From an uncultured archaeon (GTDB lineage: Archaea > Asgardarchaeota > Lokiarchaeia > Sigyniarchaeales > SOKP01), in the NCBI GenBank assembly GCA_964486045.1, contig CAZALK010000001.1:424242-488241 (forward strand): a DNA stretch of 64,000 nucleotides, written 5' to 3'. The notes under the pieces are model-generated. The model did not search any database and had not been told where the DNA came from. It saw nothing but the letters and a program-made list of their open reading frames with translations. Both the position numbers and the translations under genes were made by a program. Position 1 is the stretch's first letter. Each line of letters starts with the position of its first letter. Below are positions 3,556 to 51,907 of the stretch, in pieces.

Positions 3556-3657
3556 GCAGATGTAGCCTAGCTGGTAAGACGCTGGCCTTGAGTATCTTAT
3601 GCAATCAAGCAAGCCAGTGCGCGGAAGCGCTCGGGGGTTCGAGTCCCTCCATCTGCG
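3556..3657 (+). tRNA. tRNA-Ser(TGA) with 19-nt canonical intron (3593..3611)
   Basis: Acceptor GCAGATG/CATCTGC, G73, long variable arm, GGTTCGAGTCCC T-arm; BHB with CTTG/CAAG central helix at position 37/38. Confidence 0.92.
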
Positions 3658-43101: not shown

Positions 43102-46032
43102 TTATTTTTTTCTTTTTAATTTGCTTCTTAATTTTCTGTTAATCTTACTCCTATCATTTATTGTATTTTTGCCCTGAGTTACCTTCCACATTAACGCATT
43201 CTGATTAAATCTGACTTTTTTAAATTGCCATCTATTATTTAAAAAATTAAAAATAATATATATACCAACACAAATTGTAATAAACCAAAACCACGTCTCT
43301 AAATTAACAGTAATAGGCTTTGGAATCTCTGGAACTTCCGTTTTGTAAAAACCAAATTCAATAACTTTGTAATCATCTGTTAATTTTACATTTTTTTCTT
43401 TAATTAGATCTCCATTATTTTCATAAGCTGAAATTGTATAATTGACATCTTTTATCATTCTCATCTGAATTCCAGCGGTCGATCCTACGATAAACGAAAT
43501 ATTCGAACTACCTCTTTCTATTTCAATTTTAATCGTTCTATTAAAATTATTTACAACAATCAACGTATAAACTTCAACTTGTATATCATATTCATAAATT
43601 CCTGAAGTATTAATATTGCTATCGTACAATGTATATCCAAAATAGTCCTTAACTACTAAATTTATTATCATATTTTCAATTCTGTTAAATCCAAAATCAG
43701 TACGATTATTGTCTATATAGAATTTAAATGTATTTTCATATATTCCTAATCCATCATAATTATAAATTCCAAAAAATACATTTTTAGGATATTCTGGTGT
43801 TATGGTTGGTGTTCCAAACGATTCTATATGACTATTATCTGTCAGATTTATAATTCTCGAATCATATAACGTTGCATTTGTGAAGTAAATAGTTATATTA
43901 TATTCTACGTTTGGAAGGAATCTGTAAGTTAACCCAAATTGTTTTGGAAGTATCTGTTCCATCCACACACCCGAACCTACTTGAGTAATGTTTACGATAA
44001 TATCTTCATAAGTAAATTGATTTAAAATAATTAAAGAATAAATTTCTATAAAAATATTATATTCAGAATAAGCAGAAGCATCAATAGTGTCATTTGCTAA
44101 TGTATTATTAAAGAAATCCAAGATTAAAAGATTTGCTGTTTCAGATTGTATTATATTTCGACCAAAATCTTTTCTTACACCATTTATATAAAATCTCACT
44201 AAATCATGGTCTATTCCTAATCCATCATAAGTAAATAATCCAAAATAAATTTGGTAATATGTAGTGTTTATAGATATTATTTTATGTGTTGTAAATTCAA
44301 ATTCTAAACTTCTTGGATAATTATCCTCATGATTTGTATAATTTAAAATATAATTCCCTGTAGCAATGCTAAATTCAATAATTTCAATAGGGAAAATATT
44401 GCCTGATTTTTCAATACCAGAATTATTGTTTTTTAATATATAATCAGCATATTCACTTGCCTCATTTTTTATTTTAAGAGAATATACATTTAGAGTAATA
44501 TCTATAAAAGTCTCTTCATAACTATCATAATCTTTTATTAAAATATCAAAAGAGTCATAGATTTTAAATTCTATTAATGTATCATCATCTACATATAAAA
44601 TATGACTTGATAACCGTTCATTAGTGTAGGTAAAATTATCTAAAGTGTAATTAATATATGTAGTAAATAAATTAAAATCTAAATATTCATTATTAGAATC
44701 ATAATACGTTAAATAAACAATTTCAGAATCAATTCTTTCATAAATTAAAGTCTGTAATGTAGATGAAGTTGTTATATATTTAGTTTCCATTAATTCATTT
44801 CTTTCATAGATTTCTACTGTATAGTTATGTGGATAACCAATATCTAATTGTTTTCTTCCATTTGGTTCTACATAATAAACTATAGTTTCAGCATAACCTC
44901 TTTTAATTACTATTGAATCCACAATTAAATTCTTAGTATCATCAAATATTCCAGTAAATTCTAATTGGTCAACCGATATATTGGAGCCTATTGTAAAGGT
45001 TTTAGTTCTTGTGGAGAAATCTCCATTACCCTGACTTGAAAGAATATAACTTGCTTGTTGAATACTATTATTTCTTAGATTTAAATCAATTCTATTTGTT
45101 GAGCTTGTATTAAATTTAACTTCAATTTTATCTCCTTCCTGTAAAGTTAAATTAAGATTATTTAGACTTCTTAAAGTTAAGGTTTCTGTTTCATTAGTTT
45201 GCATATAAATCAGATTATTTCCTTGGTAGTTTTTTGAAATATGCCAAGCAGATATATTTCCTTCAAAATTTACGATAATTTGAGAAGCTTCAATTGTAAA
45301 AGTAAAATCTCTAAGATGTTTTGTAGTTATTTCAAGTGTGTTAATATCAGCATCAGTTAAATTTAAATCTGACCATCCTCCTGCGTATTTCCACACAAAA
45401 CTAGTAGAAGAAAACCAAGAATATATAGGATTTGTTGTTCCTGGAAGATTACCCGATACCTCTAATTGATTTGGTCCTGCATAAATTGTTTTATGATAAA
45501 TTGGATATATTATCTGAATAACCTTTCCTGAATCATAAGCAGATAAATTTATATTATCAAATGAATATATATCTGTTTGACCAGTTGTACTACTTATTAC
45601 TCGATTTCCATCAAATCCTACAGTACTTGGATAAATTACACCATCATCTAACTCATCGGCATGAACAGCAGGTGCAACAGGAATATCCCATTCATCAGAT
45701 ATATCTCCATCAGGTTCTATAACTATTGTTTCTTCAGTATATTCAGCGACACCAGAATAATTCATAAAAAGATAAGTAGGTGGTGCACCAATAAAATACC
45801 TTTCACTAACTCCATACAAACTCCAATTATCTGAACCTGCATCAAATGTTTCATTATAAAGATAATTATAACCAGCTGTTTCATTTATAAAATCCCATCG
45901 TGTAGATAAATCAGATTCACTAATGATTTCTATATTAGGAGTTTGTGCAAAGCCGTTACTAATAAAACTTGAAAAAGATAATATAAAAATAAATAAACAT
46001 AAACTTGAGCTTATTAACTTCTTATTTTTCAT
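43102..46032 (-). CDS. Large secreted, C-terminally anchored surface protein (adhesin/spike-like)
   Basis: Signal peptide, many N-x-S/T sequons, ~3 internal repeats (FG..YDGLGI...FYI...R.DFG.N), single C-terminal TM and basic tail. Confidence 0.8.
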   Translation of the reverse strand: MKNKKLISSSLCLFIFILSFSSFISNGFAQTPNIEIISESDLSTRWDFINETAGYNYLYNETFDAGSDNWSLYGVSERYFIGAPPTYLFMNYSGVAEYTEETIVIEPDGDISDEWDIPVAPAVHADELDDGVIYPSTVGFDGNRVISSTTGQTDIYSFDNINLSAYDSGKVIQIIYPIYHKTIYAGPNQLEVSGNLPGTTNPIYSWFSSTSFVWKYAGGWSDLNLTDADINTLEITTKHLRDFTFTIEASQIIVNFEGNISAWHISKNYQGNNLIYMQTNETETLTLRSLNNLNLTLQEGDKIEVKFNTSSTNRIDLNLRNNSIQQASYILSSQGNGDFSTRTKTFTIGSNISVDQLEFTGIFDDTKNLIVDSIVIKRGYAETIVYYVEPNGRKQLDIGYPHNYTVEIYERNELMETKYITTSSTLQTLIYERIDSEIVYLTYYDSNNEYLDFNLFTTYINYTLDNFTYTNERLSSHILYVDDDTLIEFKIYDSFDILIKDYDSYEETFIDITLNVYSLKIKNEASEYADYILKNNNSGIEKSGNIFPIEIIEFSIATGNYILNYTNHEDNYPRSLEFEFTTHKIISINTTYYQIYFGLFTYDGLGIDHDLVRFYINGVRKDFGRNIIQSETANLLILDFFNNTLANDTIDASAYSEYNIFIEIYSLIILNQFTYEDIIVNITQVGSGVWMEQILPKQFGLTYRFLPNVEYNITIYFTNATLYDSRIINLTDNSHIESFGTPTITPEYPKNVFFGIYNYDGLGIYENTFKFYIDNNRTDFGFNRIENMIINLVVKDYFGYTLYDSNINTSGIYEYDIQVEVYTLIVVNNFNRTIKIEIERGSSNISFIVGSTAGIQMRMIKDVNYTISAYENNGDLIKEKNVKLTDDYKVIEFGFYKTEVPEIPKPITVNLETWFWFITICVGIYIIFNFLNNRWQFKKVRFNQNALMWKVTQGKNTINDRSKINRKLRSKLKRKK

Positions 46033-46064
46033 TTTAATTATACCTCTCTTTTATATTTCTCATT

Positions 46065-46280
46065 TTAATATGATTTAATTTTTTTAATCACATAATATAT
46101 CAAAAAACTTACAATTACACTTACTAATAAAATTTCAAACCATATCTCATAAAAAAGATTGAAATGGGCTCCAACCCATCCACCATTAAATAAAGCATAA
46201 ATCAACATAGGTAAGAAAAGAACCCAACCACCTATTCCTAAAAACCATGCTATAATATCAATCATTTTTATTTCGGTCAT
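46065..46280 (-). CDS. Small two-helix hydrophobic protein
   Basis: 71 aa, two TM segments, basic C-terminus. Confidence 0.65.
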   Translation of the reverse strand: MTEIKMIDIIAWFLGIGGWVLFLPMLIYALFNGGWVGAHFNLFYEIWFEILLVSVIVSFLIYYVIKKIKSY

Positions 46281-46443
46281 TTTTATCCCCTTTTATAATT
46301 TCTTCAAATTTATCAGGATTTTTCATATAATAATTAATTAAATTTCTCATAATCTTTGAACGAGATATCCTAAATTCCCATTTCTTATCTTCTATAAATT
46401 TAATCTGTTCACTATATAAATGAAAGGATGTTGATACTGCCAT
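46258..46443 (-). CDS. RHH/CopG-like regulator
   Basis: STSFHLYSEQIKFIE...ISRSKIMRNLINYY. Confidence 0.7.
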   Translation of the reverse strand: MAVSTSFHLYSEQIKFIEDKKWEFRISRSKIMRNLINYYMKNPDKFEEIIKGDKNDRNKND

Positions 46444-46654
46444 CGTATTTATTATTTTTATAATTAATTATTTTCCTATTATTTAATTGATCGTTTTTAT
46501 AATATTTAAATGGAATGCCCTAATTCATAGAATCCATATTTTACATGAATTAGATTAAAGATATAATAAAATTAAAGAATGTTATACAAGTATACCTAAA
46601 ATAAATATAAAATATTAATACAAAAACAAGGTTTAAACAACGATCCAAAAAAAA

Positions 46655-47953
46655 TTATTTTTTAATATTATCAAATTCTGCTTCTATTGCTTCCTTATAA
46701 GCTTCAGGAGGAATTCTCATATTTTTTTTAATCCATTTCAATTCCTTATCAAACTGTACTCTAATATCTCTCAATTCACTTAGAAAATTATTTTGTAATT
46801 TATGTAATTCTTCAGATATCCTCTCATTTCTATCTTTTATTTCTTTATTTTCTTGTCTTAGCTCCTGAACTTCATATGGTTGAATTATAGATTCAACACC
46901 CATCTGTTCTATATCTTCTTCATTAATAATATTTCCACATTTCCAACAGAATAGATTTTCTTGACGATTTTCTGCTTCACAAATCCTACATTGTTTTGCT
47001 TCTTTTAGTTCAGGTTTAGAAATTTCAACAACATTATTAGTCATGATATCAATTATATCTTTATCAACTAAATGGAAATATATTTTTGCCATAGTAGAAT
47101 CAGCAGACCAACCAGCAAACTTTCTAATTTGAGCTTCATTTAACTTAGTTCTTGCTAATTCAGTTAATCTTGAATGCCTAAATAGATGAGGATTAAGTTT
47201 CCTTCCTTTCCATTGTTTTGGATATTTTTTAATCAATTTTTTTAATATAAAAATCAAGTAGTTATTCACAGTAGTATTATTTTTAAAATCAAACAGCTTA
47301 TTTTCTGGTTCAAAATCATTAATTCCAGTATATTCTTTTATGTATGATGTGGCTTCAATTACAGGAACATCCCTTCCATAAGTTTTTGATTCTGATATTT
47401 TTAAAATAGTATATCCACGATTAAACCTAATATCCTTCTCTCTAATGTTAAGAGCTTCATCTATTCTTAATGCTCCTTCATATAAAATCATAAATAATGT
47501 TTTATATTTAAGATTACTGTATTTTAAAATTTGCTCTAAATCTTCTCTTGTTATTAAATCAATTTTGCTAAGTTTTTTGGTTTTTCCATTCATTTTACTT
47601 GGAAATAAATTAAATAAATCATTTCTTTCAGAATATTTTAGATATTTTTTAATTCTATTAACATGCATTTTTTGTGTGCCATTTGAAAGGTTATTCCACC
47701 AATCAGAATCAAGAAAATCTTTAATATCCTGTTCAGTAAGCAAACCTATATTATTATGTTTTAAATTAAAGTCTTTATTTTTTGCTCTCCAGCTTTCATT
47801 TCTCTGCTTATCAGTTTCAAATAATTTACTAATAGATATTAAATGGTTTAAAATTGTTCCATCAGTAGAACCTTTTAACTCTTTGTAGTAATAGTTTTCT
47901 ATATTATTATCCTTAGATTTTAATCTTTCCAAATATTTATTATAACTATCCAT
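46655..47953 (-). CDS. Tyrosine recombinase/integrase with C-terminal Zn ribbon and coiled coil
   Basis: GALRIDEAL (R), SKT (K), HLFRHSR (HxxR), AGW, KIYFHL (Y); CRIC..CWKC. Confidence 0.95.
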   Translation of the reverse strand: MDSYNKYLERLKSKDNNIENYYYKELKGSTDGTILNHLISISKLFETDKQRNESWRAKNKDFNLKHNNIGLLTEQDIKDFLDSDWWNNLSNGTQKMHVNRIKKYLKYSERNDLFNLFPSKMNGKTKKLSKIDLITREDLEQILKYSNLKYKTLFMILYEGALRIDEALNIREKDIRFNRGYTILKISESKTYGRDVPVIEATSYIKEYTGINDFEPENKLFDFKNNTTVNNYLIFILKKLIKKYPKQWKGRKLNPHLFRHSRLTELARTKLNEAQIRKFAGWSADSTMAKIYFHLVDKDIIDIMTNNVVEISKPELKEAKQCRICEAENRQENLFCWKCGNIINEEDIEQMGVESIIQPYEVQELRQENKEIKDRNERISEELHKLQNNFLSELRDIRVQFDKELKWIKKNMRIPPEAYKEAIEAEFDNIKK

Positions 47954-49291: not shown

Positions 49292-49990
49292 ATGGCACAA
49301 ATAGAAATTAGAAAACACCCAAAATTTTATAACGTTTTTATTTCAGGGTCCAAAGAAAAATTGAGACTCTATACAAGGAATAGTGACAGGGGAAATAGAG
49401 TTTATGGAGAAAGATTAATTCAATATAGAGAAAATGAATACAGGGAATGGGATCCATTTCGGAGTAAATTAGCAGCCATAATTTTAGAAAACCCTCTCAA
49501 AAATTTTTTATCGGCTGACATAACTTGTTTATACTTAGGAGCTTCTTCTGGAACTACCATTTCTCACCTTTCCGATATACTAACAAGTGGAATTATATTT
49601 GGTATTGAATTTGCAGAAAGAAGCATTAGACAGTTAATCCAAAATACATCCCGAAGGAAAAATATTATCCCAATATTTGCTGATGCTCGTTATCCAGACA
49701 ATTATGCGAAATCAATATTTTCTACCATGGATATAATTTACCAGGATATATCTCAACCCAACCAAGCAGAAATTGCTTTAAATAATTGTAATTATTATCT
49801 AAGTGATAATGGTTTATTAATCCTAGCAGTTAAATCTCAATCTATCAATAGTATTCAGAAATCGGAATATGTCTATGCCCAAGAAAAGACGATTCTGGAA
49901 GAAGGAGGTTATGAAGTAATTGAGAGTGTTAATATTCATAAATATGCGGCAAATCATAGTGTGTTATTAGTTAAAAAAAGGCACGGTTAG
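49292..49990 (+). CDS. flpA: Fibrillarin rRNA 2'-O-methyltransferase
   Basis: VYGER, YREWDPFRSKLAA, LYLGASSGTTISHLSDI, QDISQPNQ. Confidence 0.96.
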   Translation: MAQIEIRKHPKFYNVFISGSKEKLRLYTRNSDRGNRVYGERLIQYRENEYREWDPFRSKLAAIILENPLKNFLSADITCLYLGASSGTTISHLSDILTSGIIFGIEFAERSIRQLIQNTSRRKNIIPIFADARYPDNYAKSIFSTMDIIYQDISQPNQAEIALNNCNYYLSDNGLLILAVKSQSINSIQKSEYVYAQEKTILEEGGYEVIESVNIHKYAANHSVLLVKKRHG

Positions 49991-50676
49991 AAAAAATCAT
50001 TAATTTTTTTGTTTACTAATTCTTCATTTACTAAATTCTTTGTAGTTGCCCAAGTTTTCCTCGCAATGGAGGGTACTTTCTGGTTTTTTCTAATCCAATC
50101 CCGAAGAAAGTTAATAGTTTTTTTATCAGAAGGGTATCCCGAGCCGAAGTCTCCATATTTTTCCTTTAGTTCATCAATTAATGAGTCTCTTTTATCTTTG
50201 GCAATAATTGAAGCTGCAGATACTATAGGAAATAGGTCATCAGCTTTATGCTTTGAAATAATTTCTTTTGGATTATAATTTAAAAGATTGAGGATAGATT
50301 GTGCGAATCTTGCTTCATTTACATCAACAGCGTCAATATAGATAGAATCAGGTTTTAACTCCCTAATAATTTCAGCCATTTTCAGCTCCTCCAGTTTATT
50401 CAGAGTAATTCTTTTTTCTTCTCTTTTATCAATTTCATCGGGAAGAACAACAATAACTTTAAAAGAATAACAGGACTCCTTAATTAACTTTGCTAATATG
50501 CTCCTCCTTTTAGTAGTTAATTTTTTAGAGTCTTTTACACCGATTTTTGTTAAATAAGATAAGCTGGATTCCTTAAAACATACACCACATAAAACAAGAG
50601 GTCCAATTACGGGGCCTTTTGGCATATAATCCAATAAGGATTATATTCTACCAGCCTCGTCAATACCACAAATCAT
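49987..50676 (-). CDS. rnhB: Ribonuclease HII, split by a 30-nt intron (exon 1 50648..50676, exon 2 49987..50617; 219 aa)
   Basis: Exon 1 MICGIDEAGR follows an AGGAG RBS; exon 2 has GPVIGPLV..GVKDSKKL..YIDA..KAD..VSAASIIAK..GSGYPSD. Confidence 0.93.
50618..50647 (-). other. Predicted bulge-helix-bulge mRNA intron in rnhB
   Basis: UGGU/GCCA 4-bp helix, AG^A and AA^A 3-nt bulges, 9-bp AUAUAAUCC/GGAUUAUAU stem, in-frame UAA. Confidence 0.85.
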
Positions 50677-50689
50677 TTTTTATTTCTCC

Positions 50690-51691
50690 TTAAGAATCTT
50701 GGATGAGATCAATGAATTCTTCTTCATCATTCACTTCTTCCAAATTTCTTATTTTTACAATGTGTATATCGTTTCTTTTTGGAATTCCGGGTATTCTAAT
50801 ATTATTATCAATGATATAAAGCGCATTTTTATGAAATAAATCATTAAACATCTTCATGCTATTAAAATTCATCTCATTGATGGTACTCTGCTCTTCGGAA
50901 ATATTTGAAAAAAGTGGATAAAATCCGCCCTTTTCAATTTGTTCAAGCGAGGAAAATAATGATAATTTGAAAGGAACTGTACGCTTTTTATACCAATAAG
51001 AAGACAATCCTATGTCATCAATAATTGTTTTTATGTGGGATTCAAATTCACTTAACTCTTTTTCTTCAGAAATTTCTTTATCAGATATCTCGTTTTTAAT
51101 ATTCCATTTAAAAACGTTGATTTTTTTGAATATAGCATTATTTTCCAAAATACTTAAAATTTTTTCGGCCATTTTTTCAGATGGGCACATACTTTCATTT
51201 TCGTATGCACTTACAATTCTCTTTGCTACTCCTAATTGTTCTGATAACTCTTTTCTTGTAATAGATTGTTCTTCTCTTATTTGTTTCATCAAATTTCCAT
51301 TCAAATATATGACACCACCCCCTCTGCGTGCAAGAATATGGGGAAAAATATTATTAGTAAGAATCTTCTCAAAAGTTTTAAAAGTTATGAATGGTAAACC
51401 GTTCCTTATATATATTGTATTAACTTCTAACTTTTGATACCTGTTTCTAATTCCTATTAATAACGGTTTGGATTTTAATATGAGAGAAAATGATTTGATG
51501 TCTTGGATTATGTCCGGATTTATATTATCAATATTGGGAAAAACTTTCACGCTAAAAACTGAATCGTCTTTTTTGACTAATAAATCAAAACAAAATTTGC
51601 TCTTTTTAGTAGCAAAATTTCCTAACACAAAGGTCTCAAAATTAGCTTTTTTCAGCAAATTGTTAATTTTTTCAATTACAGTGTCAGTCAT
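50690..51691 (-). CDS. Conserved archaeal Cro/XRE HTH transcriptional regulator (COG1395-like)
   Basis: CFDLLVKK..VKVFPNID, ARRGGG, REEQSITRKELSEQLGV..VSAYEN. Confidence 0.85.
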   Translation of the reverse strand: MTDTVIEKINNLLKKANFETFVLGNFATKKSKFCFDLLVKKDDSVFSVKVFPNIDNINPDIIQDIKSFSLILKSKPLLIGIRNRYQKLEVNTIYIRNGLPFITFKTFEKILTNNIFPHILARRGGGVIYLNGNLMKQIREEQSITRKELSEQLGVAKRIVSAYENESMCPSEKMAEKILSILENNAIFKKINVFKWNIKNEISDKEISEEKELSEFESHIKTIIDDIGLSSYWYKKRTVPFKLSLFSSLEQIEKGGFYPLFSNISEEQSTINEMNFNSMKMFNDLFHKNALYIIDNNIRIPGIPKRNDIHIVKIRNLEEVNDEEEFIDLIQDS

Positions 51692-51907
51692 CTAATCCGA
51701 TTACTTAAAATGTTAAGTTATAAATAAATTTTTTTTATGATGTTAATGTGTGCCCACATTTTTAAATTATTTCAGTTTTGGTGATTTTCAATACAATATC
51801 GAAGAGATTTATAAAATGTAATGAGAGTATTTTTGATTTAATAAGGATTTTAACTGATAAATAATTTAAAAACATATTTAAACGAACTATATAGAAGTTG
51901 ATGTTTT

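What the first reader, a model, noticed from the sequence alone, without database searches (positions are those of the whole stretch)
50618..50647. tRNA-type (BHB) intron inside the catalytic motif of an Asgard RNase HII mRNA
Seen: the minus strand reads AGGAG-n-ATG ATT TGT GGT ATT GAC GAG GCT GGT AG^A ATATAATCC TTATT GGATTATAT GCCA AA^A GGC CCC GTA ATT GGA. The conserved DEAGRGP motif is split by 30 nt containing an in-frame TAA, which is why the ORF caller produced a protein lacking the catalytic D/E. The insert forms a 4-bp helix (UGGU/GCCA) flanked by two 3-nt bulges (AGA, AAA), with a perfect 9-bp inner stem; the outer helix is weak (C-G, then imperfect). Cutting after the second base of each bulge, the rule for the archaeal splicing endonuclease EndA, gives GGT AGA GGC CCC = G-R-G-P exactly. 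Established: EndA/RtcB splice BHB introns in tRNA and rRNA; the classic protein-coding case is crenarchaeal cbf5. The tRNA-Ser intron at 3593..3611 implies the host has this machinery. Inference: RNase HII expression depends on splicing, possibly as a regulatory switch, and BHB mRNA introns may be hidden behind apparently truncated genes in Asgard genomes. I am not aware of this being described for rnhB.
Basis: partly seen in the sequence, partly recalled or inferred. Interest (0 to 1): 0.93.

Follow-up and report, generated by a model that had tools for sequence, protein, structure and literature searches.

The report
tRNA-type mini-intron splits Asgard rnhB
The only RNase HII gene of this Asgard (Loki-type) archaeon is broken by a 30-base insert shaped like the introns archaea cut out of tRNAs, so its mRNA very probably has to be spliced; about 19 more such inserts sit in other protein genes of the same genome, whereas the papers I could search document this inside a coding sequence for only one archaeal gene (cbf5).

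Summary
Observation confirmed. The 30-nt insert (50647..50618, minus strand) carries an in-frame TAA; removing it at the EndA cut sites restores DEAGRGP and a 219-aa RNase HII, the only rnhB in the genome. The insert sits at the same AG^R position in 57 of 70 loci of the host family, and inserts of 19-32 nt occupy that position in 17 Bathyarchaeia. All 72 scored inserts break the frame. The central helix pairs at 95% (25-52% if slid), with compensatory changes. Two relatives with an AG^U bulge fix the cut register. Spliced dN/dS is about 0.1, and flanking codons are constrained for RNA pairing. EndA (two paralogues) and RtcB are present. Nineteen more 30-32-nt BHB inserts (rpo1N, EF-2, selD, histone, cdhA and others) are supported by intronless homologues. 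No RNA run was listed, so splicing is inferred. The regulatory-switch idea is unsupported, and no LAGLIDADG_3 gene lies beside rnhB in 21 genomes searched. This scan has noted the rnhB intron on other DNA (15 notes) and other introns of this genome; I found no paper describing it.

The parts
50686..50690 (-). Shine-Dalgarno-like AGGAG, overlapping the stop codon of the upstream HTH regulator gene
   Evidence: sequence
50648..50676 (-). rnhB exon 1 (29 nt: M I C G I D E A G plus AG of the Arg codon), holding catalytic D6 and E7
   Evidence: 126 synonymous vs 4 non-synonymous pooled differences
50618..50647 (-). 30-nt BHB intron with in-frame TAA (50643..50641)
50654..50662 (-). 5' strand of the outer exon-exon helix h
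   Evidence: 95% of cells paired
50650..50653 (-). 5' strand of the central 4-bp helix (UGGU), exon
50647..50649 (-). 5' bulge AG^A; predicted cut between 50648 and 50647
   Evidence: register fixed by the AG^U variants L259 and L263
50624..50646 (-). inner helix h': 9-bp stem with 5-nt loop
50620..50623 (-). 3' strand of the central helix (GCCA), intron
50617..50619 (-). 3' bulge AA^A; predicted cut between 50618 and 50617; third base is always A or G (completes Arg AGR)
   Evidence: A 63, G 9 of 72
50607..50616 (-). 3' strand of the outer exon-exon helix h
49987..50617 (-). rnhB exon 2, intact to the stop codon; spliced product 219 aa
   Evidence: (TIGR00729, E 1.1e-60, above cut-off)
50690..51691 (-). 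upstream neighbour: PRK04140-like HTH transcriptional regulator (not a homing endonuclease)
   Evidence: E 4.9e-52, below the curated cut-off
49292..49990 (+). convergent downstream neighbour: fibrillarin-like methyltransferase
3593..3611 (+). 19-nt canonical BHB intron of tRNA-Ser(UGA); shows that the host has BHB substrates

Best explanation
The insert is a bulge-helix-bulge intron in the rnhB mRNA. The transcript folds into an hBHBh' motif. The host's two-subunit, probably (alpha-beta)2, splicing endonuclease EndA cuts after the second base of each 3-nt bulge, and RtcB joins the exons to give GGT AG|A GGC CCC (Gly-Arg-Gly-Pro) and a 219-aa RNase HII. Unspliced RNA gives a 11-residue peptide or an N-truncated protein without D6/E7. 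Shown: anatomy, conservation, covariation, selection, machinery genes. Inferred: cleavage, ligation, and which enzymes do it. The intron was probably gained once near the base of the host family and lost several times. It is one of about 20 or more 30-32-nt introns that this lineage tolerates in protein genes, most likely as constitutively spliced passengers rather than as a switch.
For: Single rnhB in a 99%-complete genome. Insert at the same site in 57 of 70 family loci, including single-contig genomes G006 and G023. 17 Bathyarchaeia carry 19-32-nt inserts at the same site in all three length phases, with the central helix co-varying as AGGG/CCCU, GGGG/CCCC, UGGG/CCCA, CGGG/CCCG. 72 of 72 inserts break the frame; central helix 4/4 in 57 and 3/4 in 15; third base of the 3' bulge always A or G while the second base is free. 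Central-helix pairing is 0.95 at the proposed cuts vs 0.25-0.52 when slid by 1-2 nt; the whole motif pairs at 93% vs 28-46% slid. L259 and L263 have a 5' bulge AG^U, so only a cut after the second base restores Arg. dN/dS 0.08-0.11; exon 1 has 126 synonymous vs 4 non-synonymous differences. The Glu codon is GAG in 57/57 intron bearers against a 17% background. The Gly codon in the helix is never GGA in family intron bearers (5/13 in intronless) and is GGG in 17/17 Bathyarchaeia bearers vs 1/15 without. Two intact EndA paralogues, one with the Tyr/His/Lys positions aligned to solved catalytic subunits, plus RtcB. 19 further inserts of the same geometry restore intronless homologue sequences exactly, several through a split codon. 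Precedent: cbf5 (PMC2738675).
Against: No spliced transcript, circular intron or in vitro cleavage has been seen. Many family members have a GU-rich central helix (UGGU/GUUA is the commonest type) and 15 of 72 have a mismatch, so they need a relaxed EndA whose range in Asgard is unmeasured (bioRxiv 10.64898/2026.10.13.758758 says so). ViennaRNA's minimum-energy fold of the host sequence shows a 4-nt 3' bulge, because two adjacent G can each pair with the same C. The genomes are kin, so the counts overstate independent evidence.
Confidence: 0.92

Rival explanations
1. Translational recoding: the ribosome reads through the stop or hops over the hairpin (as in T4 gene 60), with no RNA cutting.
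For: The host insert is 30 nt, in frame, with a stop beside a stable hairpin, and 56 of 72 inserts are 30 nt.
Against: Several family inserts have two in-frame stops, one is 29 nt, and Bathyarchaeia lengths cover all three phases. The take-off codon equals the landing codon in only 5 of 73 loci. Readthrough would put 10 residues inside the GRG motif. Hopping does not predict the 3-4-3 geometry or the free second base in the 3' bulge.
Confidence: 0.03
2. rnhB is a pseudogene, or makes an N-truncated non-catalytic protein from TTG/ATG inside the insert, and the hairpin is a chance insertion or terminator-like element.
For: A 215-aa ORF starts at TTG 50634. The genome also has an RNase HI-like gene (PF13456, C4:113173) that could cover part of the function.
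Against: Exon 1 is under strong purifying selection and DEAG is kept in 57/57. Many relatives have no in-frame start in the insert, or have a second stop that would end such a start. There are no other lesions, and dN/dS is about 0.1.
Confidence: 0.02
3. The intron is real and also acts as a regulatory switch that ties RNase HII levels to EndA/RtcB activity.
For: It is retained far more widely (57/70) than the genome's other introns (rpo1N 2 of 24 genus loci, moxR 1 of 17). The stop is kept in all in-frame cases, with TAA/TAG/TGA interchange and moves to other codons; shuffles give a stop in about 67%.
Against: About 20 unrelated genes carry such introns patchily, and 13 family loci lack the rnhB intron. 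Stop retention is also expected from shared ancestry and from selection against a faulty full-length protein. There are no condition-dependent data.
Confidence: 0.12
4. Assembly or sequencing artefact, or a DNA element that is excised at DNA level.
For: I could not lay reads on the locus.
Against: The insert is present with ordinary sequence divergence in dozens of independently assembled genomes. It has no second copy in the genome and no target-site duplication, and the constraints seen are on RNA pairing (G-U pairs kept).
Confidence: 0.01

Closest known systems
BHB intron in the cbf5 (pseudouridine synthase) pre-mRNA of Sulfolobales and Desulfurococcales (Watanabe 2002; Yoshinari 2006; Yokobori 2009, PMC2738675)
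   Same: Short intron inside a coding sequence, at a conserved active-site motif; BHB-like boundaries cut after the second bulge base; host with a two-subunit EndA; clade-wide retention with lineage-specific losses.
   Different: Different gene and phylum. It splits the Arg codon of the GRG motif rather than the catalytic Asp codon. The same site is occupied in a second lineage (Bathyarchaeia). It is one of about 20 in one genome, with a stereotyped 30-nt geometry, whereas cbf5 is a lone case. cbf5 splicing is experimentally shown; this is not.
HVO_1309 5' UTR intron of Haloferax volcanii (PMC7714728; reviewed in PMC10485636)
   Same: EndA-processed BHB intron in an mRNA.
   Different: 46 nt and in the untranslated leader, so it does not break a reading frame; the host has an alpha2-type EndA.
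Asgard tRNA BHB introns (bioRxiv 10.64898/2026.10.13.758758)
   Same: Same phylum, motif and presumed enzymes; repeated gains; most genomes have two EndA paralogues.
   Different: That study covers tRNA genes only (0 occurrences of 'mRNA' or 'cbf5') and likewise has no direct splicing data.
Archaeal rRNA BHB introns with LAGLIDADG homing endonucleases (own knowledge)
   Same: BHB boundaries; recurrence at one conserved site in distant lineages resembles homing.
   Different: No ORF in the 30-nt intron, and no PF14528 gene near rnhB in 21 intron-bearing genomes.

Membership tests
EndA-spliced BHB intron | 4-bp central helix between two 3-nt bulges on opposite strands | tested here: met
   4/4 in the host; 4/4 in 57 and 3/4 in 15 of 72 inserts; 0.95 paired vs 0.25-0.52 slid
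EndA-spliced BHB intron | Flanking helices h (exon-exon) and h' (intron) | tested here: met
   h' 9 bp, 91% of cells paired; h 8 pairs, 95% paired, with one bulged G after the first pair
EndA-spliced BHB intron | Boundaries after the second nucleotide of each bulge restore the mature sequence | tested here: met
   AG^U variants L259 and L263; split-codon junctions in GH57 (A|TG), AIRS-like (A|CG), cdhA (C|AC) genes
EndA-spliced BHB intron | Structure conserved by compensatory change while sequence and length vary | tested here: met
   kin are not independent
EndA-spliced BHB intron | Host encodes EndA and an RtcB ligase | tested here: met
   two PF01974 genes and one PF01139 gene, intact; the (alpha-beta)2 assembly is inferred
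EndA-spliced BHB intron | Spliced RNA or excised circular intron exists in vivo | not testable with these tools
   no RNA run was listed
EndA-spliced BHB intron | Cleavage by EndA in vitro | not testable with these tools
   needs a bench assay
Archaeal RNase HII (TIGR00729) | DEAGRG motif plus downstream carboxylates in one chain | tested here: met
   only after intron removal; an intronless family homologue matches solved archaeal RNase HII at E 3.5e-50
Homing-endonuclease-linked mobile intron | Endonuclease ORF inside or beside the intron | tested here: not met
   neighbours are an HTH regulator and fibrillarin; no PF14528 hit near rnhB in 21 genomes; other endonuclease families were not searched
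Translational bypass element (T4 gene 60 type) | Matching take-off and landing codons | tested here: not met
   5 of 73 loci match

The most novel reading that the evidence does not exclude
This Lokiarchaeia family routinely splices many essential mRNAs (RNase HII, RNA polymerase Rpo1N, EF-2, SelD, histones, CdhA, small GTPases) with its tRNA-splicing enzymes. It keeps gaining new 30-nt introns of fixed geometry (1 + 9-bp stem + 5-nt loop + 4 + 2) but unrelated sequence by an undescribed insertion mechanism. That would be a protein-catalysed, spliceosome-independent mRNA intron system in close prokaryotic relatives of eukaryotes, and it corrupts current Asgard gene annotation.
Probability: 0.75. 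Interest if true: 0.9.

Novelty: new variant of a known kind. Interest (0 to 1): 0.8.

Why it matters
Reviews up to 2023 list EndA splicing for two archaeal mRNAs, only one of them (cbf5) inside a coding sequence, and expect more (PMC10485636, PMC7714728). A family-wide rnhB intron, echoed at the same codon in Bathyarchaeia, plus about 20 introns in one genome, would make mRNA splicing an ordinary step of gene expression in an Asgard lineage. In practice, gene callers truncate or split these genes, so claims of missing catalytic residues or pseudogenes in Asgard and Bathyarchaeia genomes need rechecking. The predicted junctions are exact, so one RNA-seq or EndA assay can settle the matter. The stereotyped 30-nt size gives a handle on the open question of how BHB introns arise.

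Tried and rejected
RNA evidence: no RNA holder was listed for window 49300-51700, so no reads were laid; this is no evidence either way. First genome scan timed out and was rewritten. Loose de novo BHB scans have a high background (138 candidates vs 104 and 117 for decoy geometries; 155 vs 120-154). Only the 30-nt, at-least-12-of-13-pairs class is enriched (19 vs 5, 6, 2), so I count only candidates supported by intronless homologues. Rejected candidates: C14:-84370 (a TGA at a conserved Trp in a rhamnose-isomerase-like gene), C1:+473503 (the nop5/fibrillarin gene junction), and about 25 with no spanning homologue or only a poor one. Homing endonuclease beside rnhB: not found with PF14528. Copying of the rnhB intron from elsewhere in the genome: no match longer than 15-18 nt, and the 20 mRNA introns are not similar to each other (mean 10 of 30 identical). 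Literature searches for an rnhB intron, or for Asgard or Bathyarchaeia mRNA introns, found nothing; the library lacks most subscription papers. The tree is the quick version with many open forks; I ran no one-clade test, so gain and loss order is tentative. Loci L038, L049, L089 could not be parsed; L259 and L263 were read by hand.

Full report
Observation. On the minus strand the gene reads AGGAG (50690..50686), ATG at 50676, then codons for M I C G I D E A G, then AG^A, a 9-bp hairpin with a 5-nt loop, GCCA, AA^A and GGC CCC. Unspliced, it stops at TAA 50643..50641. Removing 50647..50618 gives a 219-aa protein starting MICGIDEAGRGPVIG; of 13 registers tried, only this one and its +1 twin do so. 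The insert folds better than all 200 shuffles (z -5.55). The downstream ORF matches TIGR00729 RNase HII above cut-off, and tblastn finds no second rnhB in the 5.18-Mb, 99%-complete genome. In the Thermotoga structure D18 and E19 are catalytic and GRG senses the 2'-OH (PMC3025331), so the insert splits the Arg codon of the GRG motif and cuts D6/E7 off from the rest.

Host. Close homologues come from records labelled Promethearchaeota or Promethearchaeia (YT5_013, ABR03, WORC5, AMARA_1S), so the host is a Loki-type Asgard archaeon. It has two intact EndA paralogues of 201 and 200 aa. One aligns with solved catalytic subunits including the Tyr, His and Lys positions; the other lacks the His. This fits an (alpha-beta)2 enzyme, the type reported to cleave non-canonical introns (PMC5829648 abstract); the assembly is inferred. 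RtcB is present. The tRNA-Ser(UGA) in the window has a canonical BHB intron at 3593..3611.

Conservation in the family. All 35 genus loci examined carry an insert at the same AG^R position. In the wider family 57 loci have it and 13 do not. Other families of the class that I read are intronless, and no stop or late start appears among the listed hits from other Asgard families (61 weaker matches were not listed). On a quick tree the intronless family members fall in several places among intron bearers, which suggests one gain and several losses (tentative). On 30 aligned loci the full hBHBh' structure pairs in 93% of cells against 28-46% when slid, with 13 compensatory cells against a shuffled mean of 4.

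A second lineage. A Bathyarchaeia contig had a different 26-nt insert at the same site (L086). Sampling 121 genomes of that class gave 110 rnhB hits, of which 17 have inserts of 19-32 nt at exactly AG^R, in all three length phases. Their central helix co-varies with the Ala or Ser wobble base: AGGG/CCCU, GGGG/CCCC, UGGG/CCCA, CGGG/CCCG. In the tree these genes sit among intronless Bathyarchaeia genes, apart from the Loki ones, so the whole gene was not transferred. Whether this reflects homing, a proto-splice hot spot or old origin with many losses is open.

Tests that separate splicing from its rivals. All 72 inserts scored break the frame by a stop or a shift. The third base of the 3' bulge is always A or G, as needed for Arg AGR, while the second base is free. 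Central-helix pairing is 0.95 at the proposed cuts and 0.25-0.52 when both are slid by 1-2 nt. L259 and L263 have AG^U as 5' bulge, so a cut one base later would give Ser; only the EndA rule gives Arg. Take-off and landing codons match in 5 of 73 loci, against ribosomal hopping. The spliced frame has dN/dS 0.08-0.11, and exon 1 shows 126 synonymous against 4 non-synonymous pooled differences, against a pseudogene or a truncated protein. Synonymous sites in the helices are constrained only where the intron is: Glu is GAG in 57/57 (17% elsewhere in these genes), the helix Gly is never GGA in family bearers (5/13 in non-bearers), and is GGG in 17/17 Bathyarchaeia bearers against 1/15. These counts are of related genomes and overstate independence, but the two lineages are separate.

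The intron is not alone. A genome scan ranked rnhB first and a 30-nt insert in the GHFGH|IEL zinc motif of RNA polymerase Rpo1N second; Pfam positions 2-73 and 74-312 abut across it. It recurs in G017 with compensatory changes and is absent from 21 other genus loci. With fixed geometry, 30-nt candidates with at least 12 of 13 pairs number 19 against 5, 6 and 2 for decoys. Intronless orthologues or paralogues align without gaps across the predicted junction for 19 further inserts of 30-32 nt: rpo1N, EF-2, selD, MoxR-like ATPase, AMP phosphorylase, GH57, cdhA (two), an AIRS-fold gene, mevalonate kinase, dodecin, thiolase, a histone, three small GTPases, a LURP-one-like gene and two hypothetical genes. 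Support is strongest where orthologues over 75% identical were available and weaker for thiolase, histone and the GTPases (paralogues only). Most of these are patchy in the genus, and relatives have 30-nt inserts at other sites of the same genes (EF-2 in G013 and G001, GH57 in G017, LURP-one-like in G006). They share geometry, not sequence. This pattern fits ongoing gain of tolerated introns better than a dedicated switch in rnhB.

Mechanism, with status. Shown: anatomy, covariation, selection, machinery genes. Inferred from the known EndA/RtcB pathway: folding of the transcript, cuts after the second base of each bulge, exon ligation, and release of a 30-nt, possibly circular, intron. Not shown: any spliced RNA; no RNA run was listed. 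Origin is unknown. Earlier scan notes tie the rnhB intron of DPANN and thaumarchaeal genomes to a neighbouring homing endonuclease. Here the neighbours are an HTH regulator and fibrillarin, and no PF14528 gene lies near rnhB in 21 intron-bearing Loki and Bathyarchaeia genomes, so if homing brought it, the endonuclease is gone or of another family. Speculation from my own knowledge of yeast work: RNases H oppose RNA-templated DNA repair, so splicing-limited RNase HII could influence intron gain or loss; nothing here tests this.

Comparison and novelty. The kind is known from cbf5 (PMC2738675, which adds that introns in other protein genes had been predicted but not confirmed) and the Haloferax HVO_1309 5' UTR (PMC7714728); a 2023 review counts two archaeal genes (PMC10485636). 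A 2026 preprint on Asgard introns treats tRNAs only. I found no paper on an rnhB intron or on Asgard mRNA introns. The rnhB intron alone is a new member of the cbf5 kind; the number per genome, the fixed 30-nt architecture and the recurrence at one codon in two phyla make it a new variant. This scan has noted the rnhB intron on other DNA (15 notes) and several of this genome's other introns. I found the family, Bathyarchaeia and first genome-scan results before the first look-up and use those notes only as leads. Verdict: real, very probably spliced (0.92); interest 0.8.

Noticed in passing
G000 C13:44101-44130 (+), locus L107:802-831: 30-nt BHB insert with stop in RNA polymerase Rpo1N (GHFGH|IEL); also in G017 with compensatory changes, absent from 21 other genus loci
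   Followed up: yes
G000 C13:92018-92047 (+), locus L308: 30-nt BHB insert in the EF-2 P-loop (AH|IDHGK); G013 and G001 instead have a 30-nt insert about 33 codons further on (L340, L342)
   Followed up: yes
G000 C1:759271 (+) selD; C3:187694 (+) MoxR-like; C7:186723 (-) AMP phosphorylase: 30-32-nt BHB inserts in conserved motifs; the selD insert of G014 (L170) keeps the frame open with no stop
   Followed up: yes
G000 C22:24748 and 24549 (-) cdhA; C22:58713 (-) GH57; C5:195271 (+) AIRS-fold; C1:511008 (+); C7:62090 (-); C18:43552 (-): Further 30-32-nt BHB inserts whose removal matches intronless orthologues; cdhA has two, about 200 nt apart
   Followed up: yes
G000 C11:28707 (+) mevalonate kinase; C11:93338 (-) dodecin; C3:186175 (+) thiolase; C6:146615 (+) histone; C17:96895 (-), C1:29542 (+), C1:354340 (+) small GTPases: More inserts of the same geometry; the mevalonate kinase insert is shared by G006, G013 and G024 but not G002
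   Followed up: partly
G000 C20:4147 (-), C8:23648 (-), C23:1650 (-), C1:788529 (+): Unverified BHB candidates (the first lies inside an amidohydrolase-3 gene whose two halves match adjacent profile parts)
   Followed up: partly
L277 (G098:C1:97500-99300), L278 (G066:C2:32600-34400): Bathyarchaeia RNase HII genes with an in-frame insertion of about 200 aa after FGS ending in HN-S, resembling a mini-intein; G074 looks the same
   Followed up: partly
G000 C14:84370-84893 (-), locus L121: Rhamnose-isomerase-like gene with a TGA at a conserved Trp position and a second break: likely pseudogene
   Followed up: no
window 43102..47953 (-): 432-aa ORF with tyrosine-recombinase-like motifs (46655..47953), two small ORFs and a 976-aa secreted or membrane-anchored protein: possibly an integrated element
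   Followed up: no
G000 C15:137829-137921: tRNA-Sec called by ARAGORN; two selD paralogues lie close together on C1 (757048 and 759301)
   Followed up: no
G000 whole genome: Many tRNA genes are mis-called by ARAGORN (Pyl, Stop) with inferred introns, consistent with multi-intron tRNAs
   Followed up: no
L266 (G372:C20): Family member whose spliced rnhB reads DEAGKGP (AA^A junction), a Lys variant also seen in intronless archaeal genes (L078, L082)
   Followed up: no
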